DNA of 64,000 bases, taken from NCBI RefSeq assembly GCF_055900595.2, contig NZ_CM148325.1. One strand, written 5' to 3'. Positions 5,140 through 49,871 of the stretch are shown one piece after another. The notes under the pieces were generated by a model. It was not told where the DNA came from. It ran no database searches and saw only the letters and a list, made by a program, of their open reading frames with translations. The translations under genes and the position numbers were made by a program. How positions within the stretch are numbered: the first letter of the stretch is position 1; each line of letters starts with the position of its first letter.

Positions 5140-5161
5140 ACTCTGGAGTCGACTCCAGAGT
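5140..5161 (-). promoter_or_regulatory. ZntR (MerR-family) operator in the zntA promoter
   Basis: Perfect 22-bp palindrome ACTCTGGAGTCGACTCCAGAGT about 40 bp upstream of the zntA start. Confidence 0.8.
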
Positions 5162-45015: not shown

Positions 45016-46533
45016 ATGGAAAGAATAATGCAAAACAGAAAATGGATTTTGACCTCGCTGATAATGACTTTTTTCGGCATCCCCATACTGACGCAATTTT
45101 TGGCAGCGGTTATTGCCATGCTGGGGGCCGGGCTTGCCGCTATTCTTGAGGTTTGCAATTTTCTCTTTACGCCAACAATTTATCTTCTACTCAACGTCTT
45201 TATGCTGACGCTGGGGGCGATAATTCTATTTTTCTCTGGTCGCGTGTGGGCCGGTGATAGCGCACCAGAAAACAGAGAAATAGCCGTCTGGCGGCAATGC
45301 TTTTTTCTTTTACCTGCACTGTTAACTCTGGTTGGCTGGATAATCACGCTACATCTGGCAGATTATCAATTTCGCCAAATGGGAGCAGGTTGGTTGGCAG
45401 AGCTTATGCTCCCCTGGCTGGGAGTTTTGTTAGTCTCATTAGTCGGAGGTGAGTTCTGGTGGATAGTCATTATACCCGTTGGTGCGCATATTAGTTTTTC
45501 GCTGGGGTATGGCTGGCCGACCAGATATCCTTTAACCGGCACGTACGGGTTACGTTGCCGTAATTCCCTCCTGTTTATCCTTCTTATGCTTGGTTTTATC
45601 GCTGGTTATCAGGCTTATTTATATAAACAGCTTAATCCCGGCGTCGGTGTGCGTGAAAATATTGATACCTGGGCCTGGCGACCCGATAAACTCAATAATC
45701 AACTGACGCCACTGCGTGGTAAACCGCAAATTCAGTTTACACAAAACTGGCTGCGACTCGATGGTGCTACGGCGGCGTACCCAATTTATGCTTCTGCCTT
45801 TTATGCGTTGAGCGTTATACCGGAAGATTTCCACACCTGGGAATATCTGGAGAACTCTCGTACCCCCGATGCATATAACAGGATTGTTAAAGGTGATGCC
45901 GATATTATTTTTGTGGCGCAACCTTCCGGTGGGCAGAAAAAACGCGCAGAGGAATCGGGCGTCACTTTGAACTACACTCCTTTCGCCCGTGAAGCATTCG
46001 TTTTCATCGTCAATGCGGATAACCCGGTTAATTCCCTGACTGACCAACAGGTGCGTGACATCTTCAGTGGCGCAATTACCAACTGGCGTACTGTTGGCGG
46101 TAACGATCAGGAGATCCAGACCTGGCAACGCCCGGAAGACTCTGGCAGCCAGACAGTGATGCAATCGCAGGTCATGAAAAATGTCCGCATGATCTCGCCG
46201 CAGGAAACCGAAGTGGCAAGCATGATGGAGGGAATGATTAAAGTTGTTGCCGAATACCGTAATACAAACAACTCAATAGGCTACACCTTCCGCTATTACG
46301 CAACACAAATGAACGCTGACAAGAATATCAAATTAGTAGCGATTAACGGTATTGCACCGACTGCGGAAAATATTCGTAACGGCAAATATCCGTATATCGT
46401 CGATGCCTTTATGGTAACGCGGGAAAATACTACGTCAGAAACACAAAAACTGGTCGAATGGTTTTTAACGCCGCAGGGGCAGAGTCTGGTGGAAGATGTG
46501 GGTTATGTACCGTTGCATACAACAATGAAATAA
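45016..46533 (+). CDS. Hypothetical fusion protein: N-terminal polytopic membrane domain (about 215 aa) plus C-terminal substrate-binding-like domain (PstS-like)
   Basis: 505-aa ORF (alternative start at Met5, 45028, with better SD); 6 or more hydrophobic helices; C-terminal domain about 60% identical to the next ORF (IIFVAQPSGGQKKRAEE..., WQRPEDSGSQTVM). Confidence 0.8.
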   Translation: MERIMQNRKWILTSLIMTFFGIPILTQFLAAVIAMLGAGLAAILEVCNFLFTPTIYLLLNVFMLTLGAIILFFSGRVWAGDSAPENREIAVWRQCFFLLPALLTLVGWIITLHLADYQFRQMGAGWLAELMLPWLGVLLVSLVGGEFWWIVIIPVGAHISFSLGYGWPTRYPLTGTYGLRCRNSLLFILLMLGFIAGYQAYLYKQLNPGVGVRENIDTWAWRPDKLNNQLTPLRGKPQIQFTQNWLRLDGATAAYPIYASAFYALSVIPEDFHTWEYLENSRTPDAYNRIVKGDADIIFVAQPSGGQKKRAEESGVTLNYTPFAREAFVFIVNADNPVNSLTDQQVRDIFSGAITNWRTVGGNDQEIQTWQRPEDSGSQTVMQSQVMKNVRMISPQETEVASMMEGMIKVVAEYRNTNNSIGYTFRYYATQMNADKNIKLVAINGIAPTAENIRNGKYPYIVDAFMVTRENTTSETQKLVEWFLTPQGQSLVEDVGYVPLHTTMK

Positions 46534-46558
46534 CTTTTGAGAGAACGGAATCAGCGCG

Positions 46559-47551
46559 ATGAATAAATTCATAGGCGTTTTACTGCTAGGTGCGGTTTTA
46601 CTGGCGGGATGTGTCGACCGGGAAGGGTACTATAACAGCGTCAGGGAAGAAGAGAGTCATGGACTGACGTCTCTGCGGGGGCAACCTGAATTACGTTACA
46701 ACGATGATTGGTCAAGATGGCCGAGAGTGTACGGCGCTACAGCCTTATACCCGCTGTATGCCTCCGCGTATTATGAATTAGTACCCGAGCCAAAAGATAA
46801 GGATCGAACCTCGCTGGCCTGGCAGGCGTATGGTTTGCAACAAACCCGAACAGCTGAAGCCTACGATAGTCTGATCAAGGGTACCGCGACGGTTATTTTT
46901 GTTGCACAACCGTCGGAAGGACAGAAAAAACGTGCAGAAGAAGCAGGCGTTAAACTGAAATATACCGCGTTTGCCCGCGAAGCCTTTGTCTTTATCGTTG
47001 ATATCAAAAACCCGGTTAATTCACTTAGCGAACAGCAGGTCAAAGACATTTTTAGCGGTAAAGTGAGTCGCTGGAATAAAGTGGGCGGCGGTGACGAAAG
47101 TATAAAAGTCTGGCAGCGGCCAGAAGATTCTGGAAGCCAAACGGTTATGAAGGGACTGGTTATGCAAGATACTCCAATGCTGCCAGCCAAAAAATCCACT
47201 GTTATCGATCTTATGGGCGGTTTAATTACCGAAGTCGCCGACTACAAAAATACACCATCTTCTATTGGATACACTTTCCACTATTACGTCACACGTATGA
47301 ATGACAATATGCTCAAAATGCGCAAACAGATCAAACTGCTGGCTATAAATGGCGTTGCACCTACAGAGGAAAATATCCGTAACGGCACTTATCCGTACAT
47401 GATTGATGCTTATATGGTGACGCACGAAACCCCTACGCTGGAAACGCAGAAATTCGTCGACTGGTTTTTAAGCCCGCAGGGACAGCAATTGGTAGAGGAT
47501 GTGGGGTATGTGCCGATTCATGACGCATCATACGAATCATCAGTGCAATAA
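46559..47551 (+). CDS. Hypothetical lipoprotein with substrate-binding-like domain (paralogue of the preceding C-terminal domain)
   Basis: 330 aa; signal peptide with lipobox LLAGC (Cys18); VIFVAQPSEGQKKRAEE and WQRPEDSGSQTVM motifs shared with the 505-aa ORF. Confidence 0.85.
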   Translation: MNKFIGVLLLGAVLLAGCVDREGYYNSVREEESHGLTSLRGQPELRYNDDWSRWPRVYGATALYPLYASAYYELVPEPKDKDRTSLAWQAYGLQQTRTAEAYDSLIKGTATVIFVAQPSEGQKKRAEEAGVKLKYTAFAREAFVFIVDIKNPVNSLSEQQVKDIFSGKVSRWNKVGGGDESIKVWQRPEDSGSQTVMKGLVMQDTPMLPAKKSTVIDLMGGLITEVADYKNTPSSIGYTFHYYVTRMNDNMLKMRKQIKLLAINGVAPTEENIRNGTYPYMIDAYMVTHETPTLETQKFVDWFLSPQGQQLVEDVGYVPIHDASYESSVQ

Positions 47552-48153
47552 TGATGAATAAAATCAGACTTTATATTCCTCCGTTAATTCTTGGTTTTGT
47601 TATTGTGCCGTTGTTGGTGTGGCCGACGGTGGTTGCGCTGGCTGCTTCTGTTATCACGCTGAGTTTTCTGGGAGAGATACTGTTCTCTATCCCGCTCATG
47701 ATCAGGCGTATTTCACTTCTGCAATTACAACTATGGTTATCGGCTGAATATGCGCTTTTCTGCTGTGCAATGGTGGGCGTTGGTTGGCAATTTGCTCGTA
47801 TAACTCAATCTGAATTGAAAAGCAGACTGCATTGTTGGCTGGTATTTGCACCAGTTTATTTCTGGTTGCTCCTGTGGAATATCATTTTCTATGTCGCGCC
47901 AGCGAATATTGCGTTGCTGGAGAATATGCGCAGTTTCTTTCTGACAGTTGTCTGGCTCCCACTAAATTTTTCGCCATTTTGGTCTCAACCGTGGATTGAC
48001 TTTGTCGGTCCAATAAGCGCACAGCTTGGTTTTGCGTTGGGATATTATTGCCAGTGGCGTAGCAAAAATAGAAGCCAGATACGGAAGTGGAGTGAGTGGG
48101 GAACGTGCCTGAGTTTTGTTACGTTGGGTATGATGGCGTGGGCTTTGCGGTAA
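47551..48153 (+). CDS. Hypothetical polytopic membrane protein (200 aa)
   Basis: Start overlaps the preceding stop (TAATG); 5-6 hydrophobic helices; loosely resembles the N-terminal domain of the 505-aa ORF. Confidence 0.7.
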   Translation: MMNKIRLYIPPLILGFVIVPLLVWPTVVALAASVITLSFLGEILFSIPLMIRRISLLQLQLWLSAEYALFCCAMVGVGWQFARITQSELKSRLHCWLVFAPVYFWLLLWNIIFYVAPANIALLENMRSFFLTVVWLPLNFSPFWSQPWIDFVGPISAQLGFALGYYCQWRSKNRSQIRKWSEWGTCLSFVTLGMMAWALR

Positions 48154-48202
48154 TTCCCTGACTCAAAAAGTAGGTCAGATTGTTGACAAAGTGCGCTTTG
48201 TT

Positions 48203-48301
48203 CATGCCGGATGCGACATGAACGTCTTATTGGCCTACAAGACCATGCAAATTCAATATATTGCATAAGCCACGTAGGCCTGATAAGCGTAGCGCATCAG
48301 G
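48203..48301. repeat. Pair of REP elements (BIME) followed by a T-tract
   Basis: tgccggatgcgacatgaacgtcttattggcctaca and cgtaggcctgataagcgtagcgcatcaggca then GTTTTTTG. Confidence 0.85.
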
Positions 48302-48323
48302 CAGTTTTTTGTTTATCATCAGT

Positions 48324-48347
48324 CTCAGGTCAGATTGAAATCTGACC
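48324..48347. other. Near-perfect 24-bp palindrome downstream of glpD, no U-tract on either strand
   Basis: CAGGTCAGATT-ga-AATCTGACCTG. Confidence 0.5.
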
Positions 48348-48365
48348 TGGCCACCTTACGTTAAT

Positions 48366-49871
48366 TTACGACGCCAGCGACAACCTCTGCTGCGTATATT
48401 CCCCTAGCCACTGACTCACACGGGATTGTTGCTGCGCATTCAGCCACATGCCTTGTTTTGTGCGACGCCACAGGGCATCGTCGGCGCGGCGGACCCATTC
48501 GTGGTCGACCAGATATTTCAGCTCCGCTTCGTAGAACTCATGACCGAAATCCTCCCCGAGGTCGCTTACCGCCCCCGCGTTGCCGAGCAGCAGCTCGCTA
48601 TTGCTGCCGTAAGTGCGTGCGTAATGACGTGCCAGCGATTCAGTCAGGAACGGGTAACGGCGGCGCAGGCGGGCGGCATAATCGTCGCGATCGCCTTCAA
48701 TGGCACCACCCGGCAGCACGCTCTCTTTCGTCCACGCCGGGCCAATGCCCTGATAATACGGCGTCAGTTTTTCCAGCGCGTGCTCCGCCAGTTTGCGGTA
48801 GGTGGTCAGCTTACCGCCGAATACTGATAACAGCGGAGCTTTGCCGTTTTCATCATGGATATCAAGGGTGTAATCACGGGTAATGGCCTGCGGCGAATCG
48901 GACTCATCATCACACAGTGGACGCACGCCGGAGTAGGTCCAGACGATATCATCCCGGCTTAGCTGCTTTTTAAAGTGCGCGTTATACACTTTCAGCAGGT
49001 AATTGATTTCACTCTCTTCAATCTTCACCGCTTTCGGATCGCCTTTATACTCCACATCGGTGGTACCGATAATGGAAAACTCGTCCATCCACGGGATCAC
49101 GAACACAATACGCTTATCTTCGTTTTGCAGAATGTAGGCCTGCTTTTGGGTATGCACGCGCGGCACCACAATATGGCTGCCTTTGATCAGGCGAATGCCA
49201 TAAGGCGAAGGCAGATGCATCCCGTCGTCGAAGAACTGTTTCACCCACGGGCCGGTGGCATTCACCAGACCGCGTGCCTGCCAGCTGTATTTTTTACCGG
49301 TATCAATATCTTCTGCTTCTACAATCCACAGGCCGTTTTCGCGGCGAGCAGAAGTGGCGCGAGTCCGGGTAAGCACTTCACCGCCTTTACGCACCACCAT
49401 CTGGGCGTTGGCGAGTACCAGACGCGCATCGTCTACCCAACAGTCGGAATATTCGAATCCGCGCTTAATTTCCGGTTTTAACACTGAATTTGCGCCAAAA
49501 CGCAAACCGGTAGATCCCGGCAGGCTGGTACGCTTACCCAGATGATCGTACATAAACAGACCAATACGGATCATCCACGCCGGACGCAGATGCGGGCGAT
49601 GCGGCAGGCGAAAACGCATCGGGAAAGCGATATGGGGAGCCATTTTCAGCAACACTTCACGTTCAGCCAGCGCCTCGCTGACCAGGCGGAATTCATAGTG
49701 CTCAAGGTAGCGAAGGCCACCATGAATGAGTTTTGAACTGGCGGAAGAGGTCGCACAAGCGAGATCCTGCGCCTCCAGCATCAGCACGGATAAACCGCGT
49801 CCAGCGGCGTCTGCCGCGATACCAGCACCATTGATGCCGCCACCTATCACAATCAGATCTTTGGTTTCCAT
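48366..49871 (-). CDS. glpD: Aerobic glycerol-3-phosphate dehydrogenase
   Basis: Start at internal Met METKDLIVIGGGINGAGIA (FAD-binding). Confidence 0.96.
   Translation of the reverse strand: METKDLIVIGGGINGAGIAADAAGRGLSVLMLEAQDLACATSSASSKLIHGGLRYLEHYEFRLVSEALAEREVLLKMAPHIAFPMRFRLPHRPHLRPAWMIRIGLFMYDHLGKRTSLPGSTGLRFGANSVLKPEIKRGFEYSDCWVDDARLVLANAQMVVRKGGEVLTRTRATSARRENGLWIVEAEDIDTGKKYSWQARGLVNATGPWVKQFFDDGMHLPSPYGIRLIKGSHIVVPRVHTQKQAYILQNEDKRIVFVIPWMDEFSIIGTTDVEYKGDPKAVKIEESEINYLLKVYNAHFKKQLSRDDIVWTYSGVRPLCDDESDSPQAITRDYTLDIHDENGKAPLLSVFGGKLTTYRKLAEHALEKLTPYYQGIGPAWTKESVLPGGAIEGDRDDYAARLRRRYPFLTESLARHYARTYGSNSELLLGNAGAVSDLGEDFGHEFYEAELKYLVDHEWVRRADDALWRRTKQGMWLNAQQQSRVSQWLGEYTQQRLSLAS

What the first reader, a model, noticed from the sequence alone, without database searches (positions are those of the whole stretch)
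48324..48347. Near-perfect 24-bp palindrome immediately downstream of glpD without a U-tract
CAGGTCAGATT-ga-AATCTGACCTG sits 18 bp from the glpD stop and next to the BIME. No U-run follows on either strand, so it is not a canonical intrinsic terminator. It could be a protein-binding site, an RNase III or stability hairpin, or a remnant boundary of the accessory insertion.
Basis: seen in the sequence. Interest (0 to 1): 0.3.

Follow-up and report, generated by a model that had tools for sequence, protein, structure and literature searches.

The report
glpD mRNA 3'-end hairpin beside BIME
The palindrome is the stem-loop at the 3' end of the glpD messenger RNA, most likely the stem of an old terminator whose run of U's was pushed about 150 bases away when a repeat element (BIME) inserted at its foot; it is real and explainable but ordinary.

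Summary
The palindrome is real but lies at window 48326-48349, 2 bp from the stated coordinates and 16 nt from the glpD stop. It occurs once per genome, in 44% of 5,426 complete E. coli genomes, including K-12. It is not a REP variant.

Across six distinct Escherichia variants all 10 stem pairs are kept on the glpD-sense strand. Two pairs changed on both sides. Three changed on one side to G·U, which would be A·C on the other strand. This points to an RNA hairpin in the glpD transcript rather than a DNA operator.

Published Term-seq for K-12 puts the "primary" glpD 3' end 4 nt past this stem.

A 151-bp BIME-1 (K-12 REP256) with 15-bp terminal inverted repeats abuts the stem. Beyond the element lie a second copy of the stem's 3' arm and ACUUUUUGAG. 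One Escherichia lineage has no BIME, and there the stem is followed directly by a U-rich tail. In Intestinirhabdus alba a related element sits between two copies of the glpD terminator.

Best reading: a former intrinsic-terminator stem, cut off from its U-tract by the BIME, that now marks or protects the mRNA 3' end. Interest is low.

The parts
48366..49871 (-). glpD coding sequence (aerobic glycerol-3-phosphate dehydrogenase, 501 aa); stop codon TAA at 48366-48368
   Evidence: ORF list. RefSeq annotation of the 100%-identical strain and of K-12.
48350..48365 (-). 16-nt spacer of the glpD 3' UTR between the stop codon and the hairpin (AUUAACGUAAGGUGGC)
   Evidence: Sequence. Conserved in K-12 and other Escherichia.
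48326..48349 (-). The palindrome. In the glpD transcript it forms a 10-bp stem with a UUCA loop (CAGGUCAGAU-UUCA-AUCUGACCUG), -14.4 kcal/mol. It is the hairpin at the 3' end of glpD mRNA. Base 48326 also belongs to the BIME.
   Evidence: structure. (single copy, 2374 of 5426 genomes). (10 of 10 pairs kept, 2 compensatory pairs, 3 G·U changes valid only on this strand). (K-12 Term-seq 3' end 4 nt past the stem).
48176..48326 (.). 151-bp BIME-1-type element (K-12 REP256), framed by imperfect 15-bp terminal inverted repeats: CAGATTGTTGACAAA at 48176-48190, and the reverse complement of GAGACTGATGATAAA at 48312-48326
   Evidence: Multi-copy match of window 48174-48326. Closest copy lies between fepA and entD. 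The same frame occurs in I. alba. Coordinates. The name REP256 comes from PMC10100675.
48206..48238 (+). Y-type REP (palindromic unit) of the BIME
   Evidence: Sequence and alignment with the fepA-entD BIME. In K-12 a second Term-seq 3' end lies 6 nt past this REP on the glpD-sense strand.
48239..48273 (.). Long linker (L motif) of the BIME-1, with an IHF-site-like AATTCAATATATTG
   Evidence: Sequence. BIME-1 definition in PMC3333891. Sub-threshold Rfam ES036 match at 48239-48281.
48274..48311 (+). Z-type REP (48274-48302) followed by AGTTTTTTG. On the plus strand this looks like a terminator for the converging accessory genes.
   Evidence: Sequence. Inference only; the simple scan did not call it because the stem has a bulge.
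48172..48182 (-). Second copy of the hairpin's 3' arm (CAAUCUGACCU on the glpD-sense strand). It is an exact 11-nt direct repeat of 48327-48337 and consists of 4 nt of flank (AGGT) plus the 7-nt tip of the element.
   Evidence: 3 matches against 0.74 expected; no shuffle reached 3..
48162..48171 (-). ACUUUUUGAG on the glpD-sense strand: the displaced U-tract. If 48183-48337 is removed, it follows the stem directly.
   Evidence: Sequence. Fold of the reconstructed sequence. BIME-free lineages L011 and L089 have the stem followed directly by CUCUUUAGCAUU.
47551..48153 (+). Converging 200-aa ORF, last gene of the accessory cluster between glgP and glpD. Its stop codon lies 18 nt before the distal arm copy.
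   Evidence: No Pfam family.

Best explanation
The palindrome acts as RNA, not DNA. It is the stem-loop at the 3' end of the glpD transcript, 16 nt after the stop codon.

It was most likely the stem of a glpD intrinsic terminator (stem followed by ACUUUUUGAG). A 151-bp BIME-1 element framed by terminal inverted repeats then inserted at the 3' foot of the stem. That left the whole stem next to glpD and moved a second copy of the 3' arm, together with the U-run, about 155 nt downstream.

Today RNA polymerase probably reads through the U-less hairpin at least part of the time. Transcripts end at or beyond the BIME. The hairpin and the REPs then set stable 3' ends, either by weak termination or, more likely, by blocking 3'-to-5' exonucleases.

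Shown here: the structure, its conservation on one strand only, the single-copy status, the mapped 3' ends in K-12, the BIME-free lineage and the parallel case in I. alba.

Inferred: the order of events (insertion rather than later loss of the BIME), and whether the 3' end arises by termination or by trimming.
For: 1. The palindrome is exact and single copy: one site per genome in 2374 of 5426 E. coli genomes.

2. The same region is in K-12 at 94.8% identity.

3. Six distinct variants keep 10 of 10 pairs (100% of cells). Two pairs changed on both sides (C-G to U-A, A-U to G-C). Three changed on one side to G·U.

4. On the opposite strand the K-12, SCU-102 and L011 variants lose 4.5, 2.6 and 4.0 kcal/mol.

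5. Term-seq of MG1655 (Adams et al. 2021, PMC7815308, supplementary file 1) lists a 'primary' glpD 3' end at 3563562. That is 4 nt past the stem at 3563535-3563558. A second 3' end at 3563685 lies 6 nt past the distal REP.

6. An 11-nt exact direct repeat of the 3' arm flanks the BIME, and the distal copy runs into ACTTTTTGAG.

7. L011 (strain SCPM-O-B-8794) and metagenome contig L089 have no BIME. There the stem is followed directly by CUCUUUAGCAUU and then the same downstream flank.

8. In I. alba (L076) an element with the same ends (GAGACTGATGACAAAC ... TTTGTCATCAACCTGA) lies between two copies of the glpD terminator CCGGGCACCGCCCGGCTTT. Only the distal copy keeps the full T-run.

9. The other E. 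coli allele has a different hairpin, followed by UAUUUGG, at the same place after the glpD stop.

10. U-less stable stem-loops at steady-state mRNA 3' ends are a described class in E. coli (Dar & Sorek 2018, PMC6061677, abstract).
Against: - Only one independent lineage shows the BIME-free state. Deletion between the 11-bp direct repeats would produce the same sequence, so the order of events is not proven.
- The tail in that lineage (CUCUUUAG) has only 4 U in 8 and would not pass a strict terminator rule.
- Seven of the 11 repeated bases are identical to the tip of the element's inverted repeat, which is also present in the fepA-entD copy. Either the repeat is a 4-bp duplication beside a target that already resembled the tip, or the hairpin arm derives from the element.
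- E. whittamii keeps the BIME but has lost the palindrome, so the hairpin is dispensable at least there.
- The Term-seq row appears once in the file, and I did not confirm the growth condition.
- A 3' end 4 nt past a stem does not tell termination from trimming.
- The covariation rests on six sequences from closely related lineages.
Confidence: 0.68

Rival explanations
1. The hairpin is still a working transcription terminator by itself, without a U-tract. RNA polymerase releases the glpD transcript a few nucleotides past the stem, so the 3' end at +4 is a true termination point rather than a trimmed end.
For: The K-12 Term-seq 'primary' 3' end lies 4 nt after the stem. The stem is stable at -13.8 to -14.4 kcal/mol. 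No Rho termination region is listed near glpD in supplementary file 2 of PMC7815308.
Against: No U-run follows. A second 3' end on the same strand, with a higher score (3299.91 against 2103.81), lies 123 nt further on, after the distal REP; this implies substantial read-through. Established knowledge of intrinsic termination requires a U-rich tract next to the stem. Ends immediately after U-less stems are the signature of exonuclease-trimmed transcripts (PMC6061677).
Confidence: 0.15
2. The palindrome is a by-product of the repeat element. It would be an inverted duplication of the element's terminal tip plus a few flanking bases, made during insertion or rearrangement. It would have no selected function, and the BIME-free lineage would have lost the element later by deletion between the direct repeats.
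For: The 3' arm CAATCTGA is identical to the tip of the element's terminal repeat, which is also present in the fepA-entD copy and, as CAACCTGA, in I. alba. The palindrome directly abuts the element and shares its last base. E. whittamii has the element without the palindrome.
Against: The fepA-entD copy has no such palindrome beside it. The BIME-free lineage differs from E. coli at 6 of the 24 palindrome positions (5 in the stem, 1 in the loop), yet every pair is kept; two changes are compensatory and one gives G·U. Three independent G·U states are tolerated only on the glpD-sense strand, which argues for constraint on the RNA. A mapped mRNA 3' end sits at the stem. The alternative allele has an unrelated hairpin at the same position.
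Confidence: 0.1
3. The palindrome is a DNA binding site for a dimeric regulator, either an operator acting on glpD or on the converging accessory genes, or a nucleoid or recombination protein site.
For: It is a 24-bp near-perfect dyad with 11-nt arms. It lies next to an IHF-site-bearing BIME-1.
Against: It lies downstream of two converging genes, not at a promoter. Most genomes that carry it, including K-12, O157 and two other Escherichia species, have an asymmetric version; SCU-102 has two asymmetric changes. All of these keep RNA pairing on one strand only. It is absent from 56% of E. coli genomes. No second copy exists anywhere in the genomes searched. It does not match the GlpR operator consensus as I recall it; that comparison is from memory and was not tested.
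Confidence: 0.04
4. The palindrome is an RNase III processing site, or the attachment or boundary scar of the accessory gene cluster between glgP and glpD.
For: It is a double-stranded RNA element in a 3' UTR. It lies within the segment that differs between the two E. coli alleles of this region.
Against: The stem has only 10-11 bp, whereas by established knowledge RNase III substrates need roughly two helical turns. The allele break is at the glpD stop codon, not at the palindrome. K-12, which has lost most of the cluster, keeps the palindrome, and its deletion ends about 240 bp away. No integrase or matching repeat at the far end of the cluster was seen.
Confidence: 0.03

Closest known systems
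U-less protective stem-loops at steady-state 3' ends of E. coli mRNAs (Dar & Sorek 2018, NAR 46:6797, PMC6061677)
   Same: A stable stem-loop lies immediately upstream of a precisely mapped steady-state 3' end and is not followed by a U-rich stretch. It sits a few nucleotides after the end of a coding region.
   Different: Rho dependence and exonuclease trimming of the glpD transcript were not tested here. No Rho region is listed at this site in the Adams et al. data. This hairpin appears to have begun as the stem of an intrinsic terminator.
Canonical intrinsic (Rho-independent) terminator
   Same: A 10-bp stem with a 4-nt loop lies 16 nt after a stop codon. After removing the BIME, the stem is followed by ACUUUUUGAG, which has 5 U in 8.
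   Different: In the present sequence the stem is followed by AGACUGAUGAU and the U-run is 155 nt away. The mapped 3' end is 4 nt past the stem, not inside a U-tract.
REP/BIME elements as mRNA 3' stabilisers and attenuators (BIME-1: y and z1 REPs with an IHF-binding long linker; Ton-Hoang et al. 2012, PMC3333891)
   Same: The neighbouring 151-bp element is a BIME-1 (K-12 REP256). A second glpD-strand 3' end maps 6 nt past its distal REP, as expected for a REP-stabilised end.
   Different: The palindrome itself is not a REP. It has no REP consensus, occurs once per genome, and is absent from other BIME-1 copies such as the one between fepA and entD.
Miniature inverted-repeat elements that insert beside or into hairpins and terminators (for example Correia/NEMIS and ERIC; review PMC2229807)
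   Same: The BIME-1 here is framed by 15-bp imperfect terminal inverted repeats. It is flanked by a short direct repeat, and filled and empty sites can be compared between lineages.
   Different: REP/BIME spread is attributed to TnpA-REP (RAYT) enzymes, whose relatives make no target duplications (PMC3333891). Here the flanking repeat is 11 bp in E. coli and 19 bp or more, covering a whole terminator hairpin, in I. alba. Part of the repeat coincides with the element's own tip. No known mechanism was matched.

Membership tests
Canonical intrinsic terminator | Stable G+C-containing stem-loop shortly after the gene | tested here: met
   10-bp stem, UUCA loop, -14.4 kcal/mol, 16 nt after the glpD stop.
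Canonical intrinsic terminator | U-rich tract immediately 3' of the stem | tested here: not met
   The stem is followed by AGACUGAUGAUAAAC, and the terminator scan found nothing. The feature is met only in the reconstruction without the BIME (ACUUUUUGAG). In lineage L011 it is weak (CUCUUUAG).
Canonical intrinsic terminator | RNA 3' end within the U-tract, about 7-9 nt after the stem | tested here: not met
   The K-12 Term-seq 3' end is 4 nt after the stem, at ...CCUGAGAC. No 3' end is listed at the displaced U-run, 3563716-3563720.
REP / palindromic unit | Many copies per genome sharing a consensus | tested here: not met
   One site per genome and none on plasmids. Where two places are reported, both strands of the perfect palindrome match the same site.
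REP / palindromic unit | REP consensus with GTAG/CTAC at the foot of the stem | tested here: not met
   The palindrome contains no GTAG/CTAC and does not resemble the adjacent Y and Z REPs. Definition from PMC3333891.
U-less protective 3' stem-loop (Dar & Sorek class) | Steady-state mRNA 3' end immediately downstream of a stable stem-loop without a U-stretch | tested here: met
   Published Term-seq for K-12 has the primary glpD 3' end at 3563562, 4 nt past the stem. There is no U-run. This was measured on the K-12 allele, not on the strain of the window.
U-less protective 3' stem-loop (Dar & Sorek class) | Transcript terminated downstream (Rho) and trimmed back by PNPase or RNase II | not testable with these tools
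   No Rho termination region is listed near glpD in supplementary file 2 of PMC7815308. That absence is not evidence against Rho termination, since the authors themselves say Rho sites may be under-counted.
Structured RNA element under selection | Base pairs maintained through compensatory and wobble changes on the transcribed strand | tested here: met
   100% of 60 cells are paired, with 2 pairs changed on both sides and 3 changed on one side to G·U. 16 of 500 shuffles reach the observed values. The sample is small: 6 distinct sequences from close relatives.
BIME-1 (the neighbouring element, not the palindrome) | One y and one z1 REP in inverted orientation, separated by a conserved long linker with an IHF site, present as a single unit | tested here: met
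   Y REP at 48206-48238, linker at 48239-48273, Z REP at 48274-48302. It is 87-88% identical to the fepA-entD BIME. Definition. IHF binding itself was not tested.
RNase III substrate | About 20 bp or more of double-stranded RNA | tested here: not met
   The stem has 10-11 bp.
Palindromic operator for a dimeric DNA-binding protein | Dyad symmetry conserved on the DNA, and position at a regulated promoter | tested here: not met
   Common variants break the dyad on the DNA but not the RNA pairing. The site lies between two converging stop codons. Protein binding itself is not testable here.

The most novel reading that the evidence does not exclude
BIME-1 elements framed by the inverted repeats GAGACTGATGACAAA ... 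TTTGTCAWCAAYCTGA would be a small mobile family that targets the 3' foot of terminator hairpins. They would choose sites that resemble their own tip and duplicate part or all of the hairpin: 11 bp in E. coli, 19 bp or more in Intestinirhabdus alba. That would give a sequence-level handle on how REP/BIME elements insert, which is still unresolved, and would show that they can rewire termination by separating stems from U-tracts.
Probability: 0.15. Interest if true: 0.5.

Novelty: new member of a known kind. Interest (0 to 1): 0.2.

Why it matters
For glpD itself the finding matters little. It explains why the gene ends in a strong hairpin with no U-run, and it matches a 3' end already listed in public Term-seq tables.

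The wider point is modest. This is a clean, reconstructible case in which a REP/BIME insertion split an intrinsic terminator. The stem was left as a U-less 3'-end hairpin, and REP-stabilised ends were added downstream. Such events could be one source of the many U-less 3' stem-loops seen in E. coli.

The flanking repeats here and in I. alba are a small clue to how these elements insert.

Tried and rejected
1. Multi-copy REP variant: rejected. A 30-nt query centred on the palindrome finds one site per genome.

2. Boundary of the accessory insertion: rejected. K-12 shares the palindrome, its deletion ends near window 48086, and the allele break is at the glpD stop.

3. Empty sites within E. coli. 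An 86-nt reconstructed empty-site query gave only two-piece (filled) matches among the rows shown. A megablast with the L011 empty site found nothing among the complete E. coli genomes. So the empty state was seen only in L011 and in one metagenome contig, L089, of the same lineage.

4. Treating the 11-bp repeat as a plain target-site duplication: weakened. The fepA-entD copy also starts GTCAGATTG, so 7-9 of the bases belong to the element's tip.

5. Polymorphism of the fepA-entD BIME, to define the element's ends: none found. At least 80% of the 381-nt fepA-entD query, which includes the element, is matched in 5345 of 5426 genomes, and no empty site was seen among the rows shown.

6. More copies of the framed element. 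Scans of viral contigs for GAGACTGATGACAAAC and TTGACAAAGTGCGC returned only the fepA-entD copy plus unrelated chance matches. Nothing else turned up in the window or in the 80 glpD loci except I. alba.

7. Rfam: no family at the palindrome. The only hit is a sub-threshold ES036 match inside the BIME linker.

8. Terminator duplication as a general feature downstream of glpD. Across 76 of the glpD loci only I. alba shows it. The Leclercia case (L077) is a simple tandem duplication.

9. Supplementary tables of Dar & Sorek 2018 and of PMC9023263 are not held, so glpD could not be looked up there.

Full report
**Observation**

- The sequence CAGGTCAGATT-GA-AATCTGACCTG is present once in the window, at 48326-48349. 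This is 2 bp to the right of the coordinates given.
- glpD lies on the minus strand at 48366-49871. Sixteen nucleotides, not 18, separate its stop codon from the palindrome.
- No shuffle of the window produced a match. It is one of three perfect short-spacer inverted repeats with arms of 11 nt or more among the 25 longest pairs shown for the 64-kb window.
- No U-run follows on either strand, and a simple terminator scan finds nothing between 47900 and 48600.
- The neighbouring repeat element ends at 48326, so it directly abuts the palindrome.

**Distribution**

- The region 48100-48500 matches K-12 MG1655 over its whole length at 94.8% identity.
- A 30-nt query centred on the palindrome finds one site per genome in 2374 of 5426 complete E. 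coli genomes, and none on plasmids. It is therefore not a REP variant.
- In the remaining genomes, about 56%, similarity to the window stops exactly at the glpD stop codon.
- Those genomes carry a different version of the accessory genes between glgP and glpD. At the same place after the stop they have an unrelated hairpin, GCCCGGUUG-AAGUG-CAACCGGGC, followed by UAUUUGG.
- In K-12 the accessory genes are mostly deleted (yzgL is the remnant). The deletion ends near window 48086, well away from the palindrome.

**Which strand matters**

Six distinct versions of the stem were collected: the window, K-12, strain SCU-102, O169:H41, Escherichia sp. MOD1-EC7003, and strain SCPM-O-B-8794 (L011). On the glpD-sense strand:

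- All ten pairs are kept in every sequence.
- Two pairs changed on both sides (C-G to U-A, A-U to G-C).
- Three pairs changed on one side to G·U.
- On the opposite strand those three changes give A·C mismatches, and the predicted stability drops by 2.6 to 4.5 kcal/mol.

The sample is small and the lineages are close. Even so, the pattern is what an RNA hairpin in the glpD transcript would show, and not what a symmetric DNA operator would show.

**Published 3' ends**

- Supplementary file 1 of Adams et al. 2021 (eLife 10:e62438, PMC7815308) lists for MG1655 a 'primary' glpD 3' end at 3563562 on the plus strand.
- The K-12 stem is at 3563535-3563558, so this end lies 4 nt past the stem (...CCUGAGAC).
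- A second 3' end on the same strand, at 3563685, lies 6 nt past the distal REP of the BIME (3563650-3563679) and has the higher score.
- No end is listed at the U-run further on (3563716-3563720). No Rho termination region is listed nearby in supplementary file 2.
- The hairpin therefore marks a real mRNA 3' end, but many transcripts extend past it.
- Ends that sit just after stable stem-loops lacking U's are a described class in E. coli, attributed to protection from 3' exonucleases (Dar & Sorek 2018, PMC6061677).

**The neighbouring element**

- Window 48174-48326 matches many places per genome. Its closest relative is the element between fepA and entD.
- Its parts are a Y REP (48206-48238), a long linker with an IHF-site-like sequence (48239-48273), and a Z REP (48274-48302) followed by T6. 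This is the BIME-1 layout (PMC3333891).
- K-12 literature names it REP256 (PMC10100675).
- Its ends are imperfect 15-bp inverted repeats, matching at 12 of 15 positions: CAGATTGTTGACAAA at 48176-48190 and, on the other strand, GAGACTGATGATAAA at 48312-48326.

**The split terminator**

- The 11-mer AGGTCAGATTG occurs at 48172-48182 and again at 48327-48337, one copy on each side of the element.
- Read on the glpD strand, the far copy is CAAUCUGACCU followed by ACUUUUUGAG.
- Removing 48183-48337 gives CAGGUCAGAUUUCAAUCUGACCU-ACUUUUUGAG, a stem followed by five U's.
- One Escherichia lineage has exactly this layout without any BIME. It is represented by strain SCPM-O-B-8794 (L011), a separate species representative in the genome collection, and by metagenome contig L089.
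- In that lineage the order is: glpD stop, 16 nt, UGGGUCGGAUUUCGAUCUGACCCA, CUCUUUAGCAUU, and then the same flank as in E. coli.
- In Intestinirhabdus alba (L076), an element with the same ends but different internal hairpins sits between two direct copies of the glpD terminator CCGGGCACCGCCCGGCTTT. The copy next to glpD is followed by GAGACUG. Only the far copy keeps the full run of U's.
- E. whittamii keeps the BIME but has lost the palindrome through a 23-nt deletion.

**Conclusion**

- The simplest account is that the palindrome was the stem of the glpD intrinsic terminator. A BIME-1 inserted at its 3' foot and separated it from its U-tract. The stem has since been kept as the hairpin at the 3' end of the glpD mRNA.
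- I put 0.68 on this whole account. The RNA-hairpin part is more secure than the order of events.

**What remains open**

- Seven of the eleven repeated bases equal the tip of the element's own inverted repeat, which is also present in the fepA-entD copy. The repeat may therefore be a 4-bp duplication (AGGT) next to a target that already resembled the tip. Alternatively, the arm may derive from the element.
- Deletion between the direct repeats could also create the BIME-free state.
- Whether the +4 end arises by termination or by trimming cannot be told from sequence.

**Alternatives considered**

- A protein operator, an RNase III site (the stem has only 10-11 bp) and an insertion boundary are all poorly supported, for the reasons given under the rival explanations.
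- Rfam has no family at the palindrome.

**Verdict**

This is a real feature with a good explanation: an ordinary 3'-end hairpin with a small evolutionary twist. Interest is 0.2.

Noticed in passing
window 45016-48365; loci L003, L004 5860-6003: E. coli has at least two alleles of the segment between glgP and glpD. The window and K-12 type carries two PstS-like binding-protein genes plus a 200-aa ORF. The other type (O111, APEC O1) carries different genes, sometimes with a fimbrial operon. Similarity between the two types resumes exactly at the glpD stop codon, and each type has its own hairpin after glpD.
   Followed up: partly
L001 2778-3000 (K-12) versus window 45016-48090: K-12 yzgL is the remnant of a deletion that removed most of the PstS-like cluster. 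The deletion joins the start of the first gene to about window 48086.
   Followed up: partly
L076 4006-4200 (Intestinirhabdus alba): The glpD terminator CCGGGCACCGCCCGGCTTT is present twice in direct orientation, on either side of a 145-nt element. That element has the same terminal repeats as the E. coli BIME-1 but different internal hairpins and an IHF-like AATCAATTCATTGATT. The duplication may extend to about 27 bp, including bases that resemble the element's tip.
   Followed up: partly
L009 4004-4040 (Escherichia whittamii): The BIME downstream of glpD is present, but the 23 nt that form the palindrome are missing (GGGCTG|GACTGATGAC). The hairpin is therefore dispensable, or was lost, in that species.
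   Followed up: no
window 48239-48281 (+): There is a sub-threshold Rfam match to ES036 (CssrF) sRNA (35.4 bits against a gathering score of 37.6, E = 3e-05) inside the BIME-1 linker. That family may simply model this repeat.
   Followed up: no
window 48274-48311 (+): The Z REP followed by AGTTTTTTG looks like a REP-based terminator for the converging plus-strand accessory genes. The simple scan misses it because the stem has a bulge.
   Followed up: no
window 47551-48153 (+): The 200-aa ORF at the end of the accessory cluster has no Pfam family. RefSeq calls it a hypothetical protein. The two upstream proteins carry PBP_like_2 domains (E = 3e-30 and 1e-29).
   Followed up: partly
window 5140-5161 and 2868-2892: Two other perfect inverted repeats are present in the window: a 22-bp palindrome ACTCTGGAGTCGACTCCAGAGT, and 11-nt arms GCCTGATAGCC/GGCTATCAGGC with a 3-nt spacer.
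   Followed up: no
L077 3515-3730 (Leclercia sp. UBA7405): Downstream of glpD, an 81-nt unit made of a CCCTCTCC...GAGAGGG repeat plus the terminator AAAAAAGACAACTGGCGTTGTCTTTTTGCTTTT is tandemly duplicated. A third partial copy of the U-rich tail follows.
   Followed up: no
K-12 NC_000913.3 3562029-3563081 (equivalent to window glpD 5' region and body): The same Term-seq table lists four 3' ends internal to glpD, at 3562029, 3562232, 3562574 and 3563081. The first is only 16 nt into the ORF.
   Followed up: no
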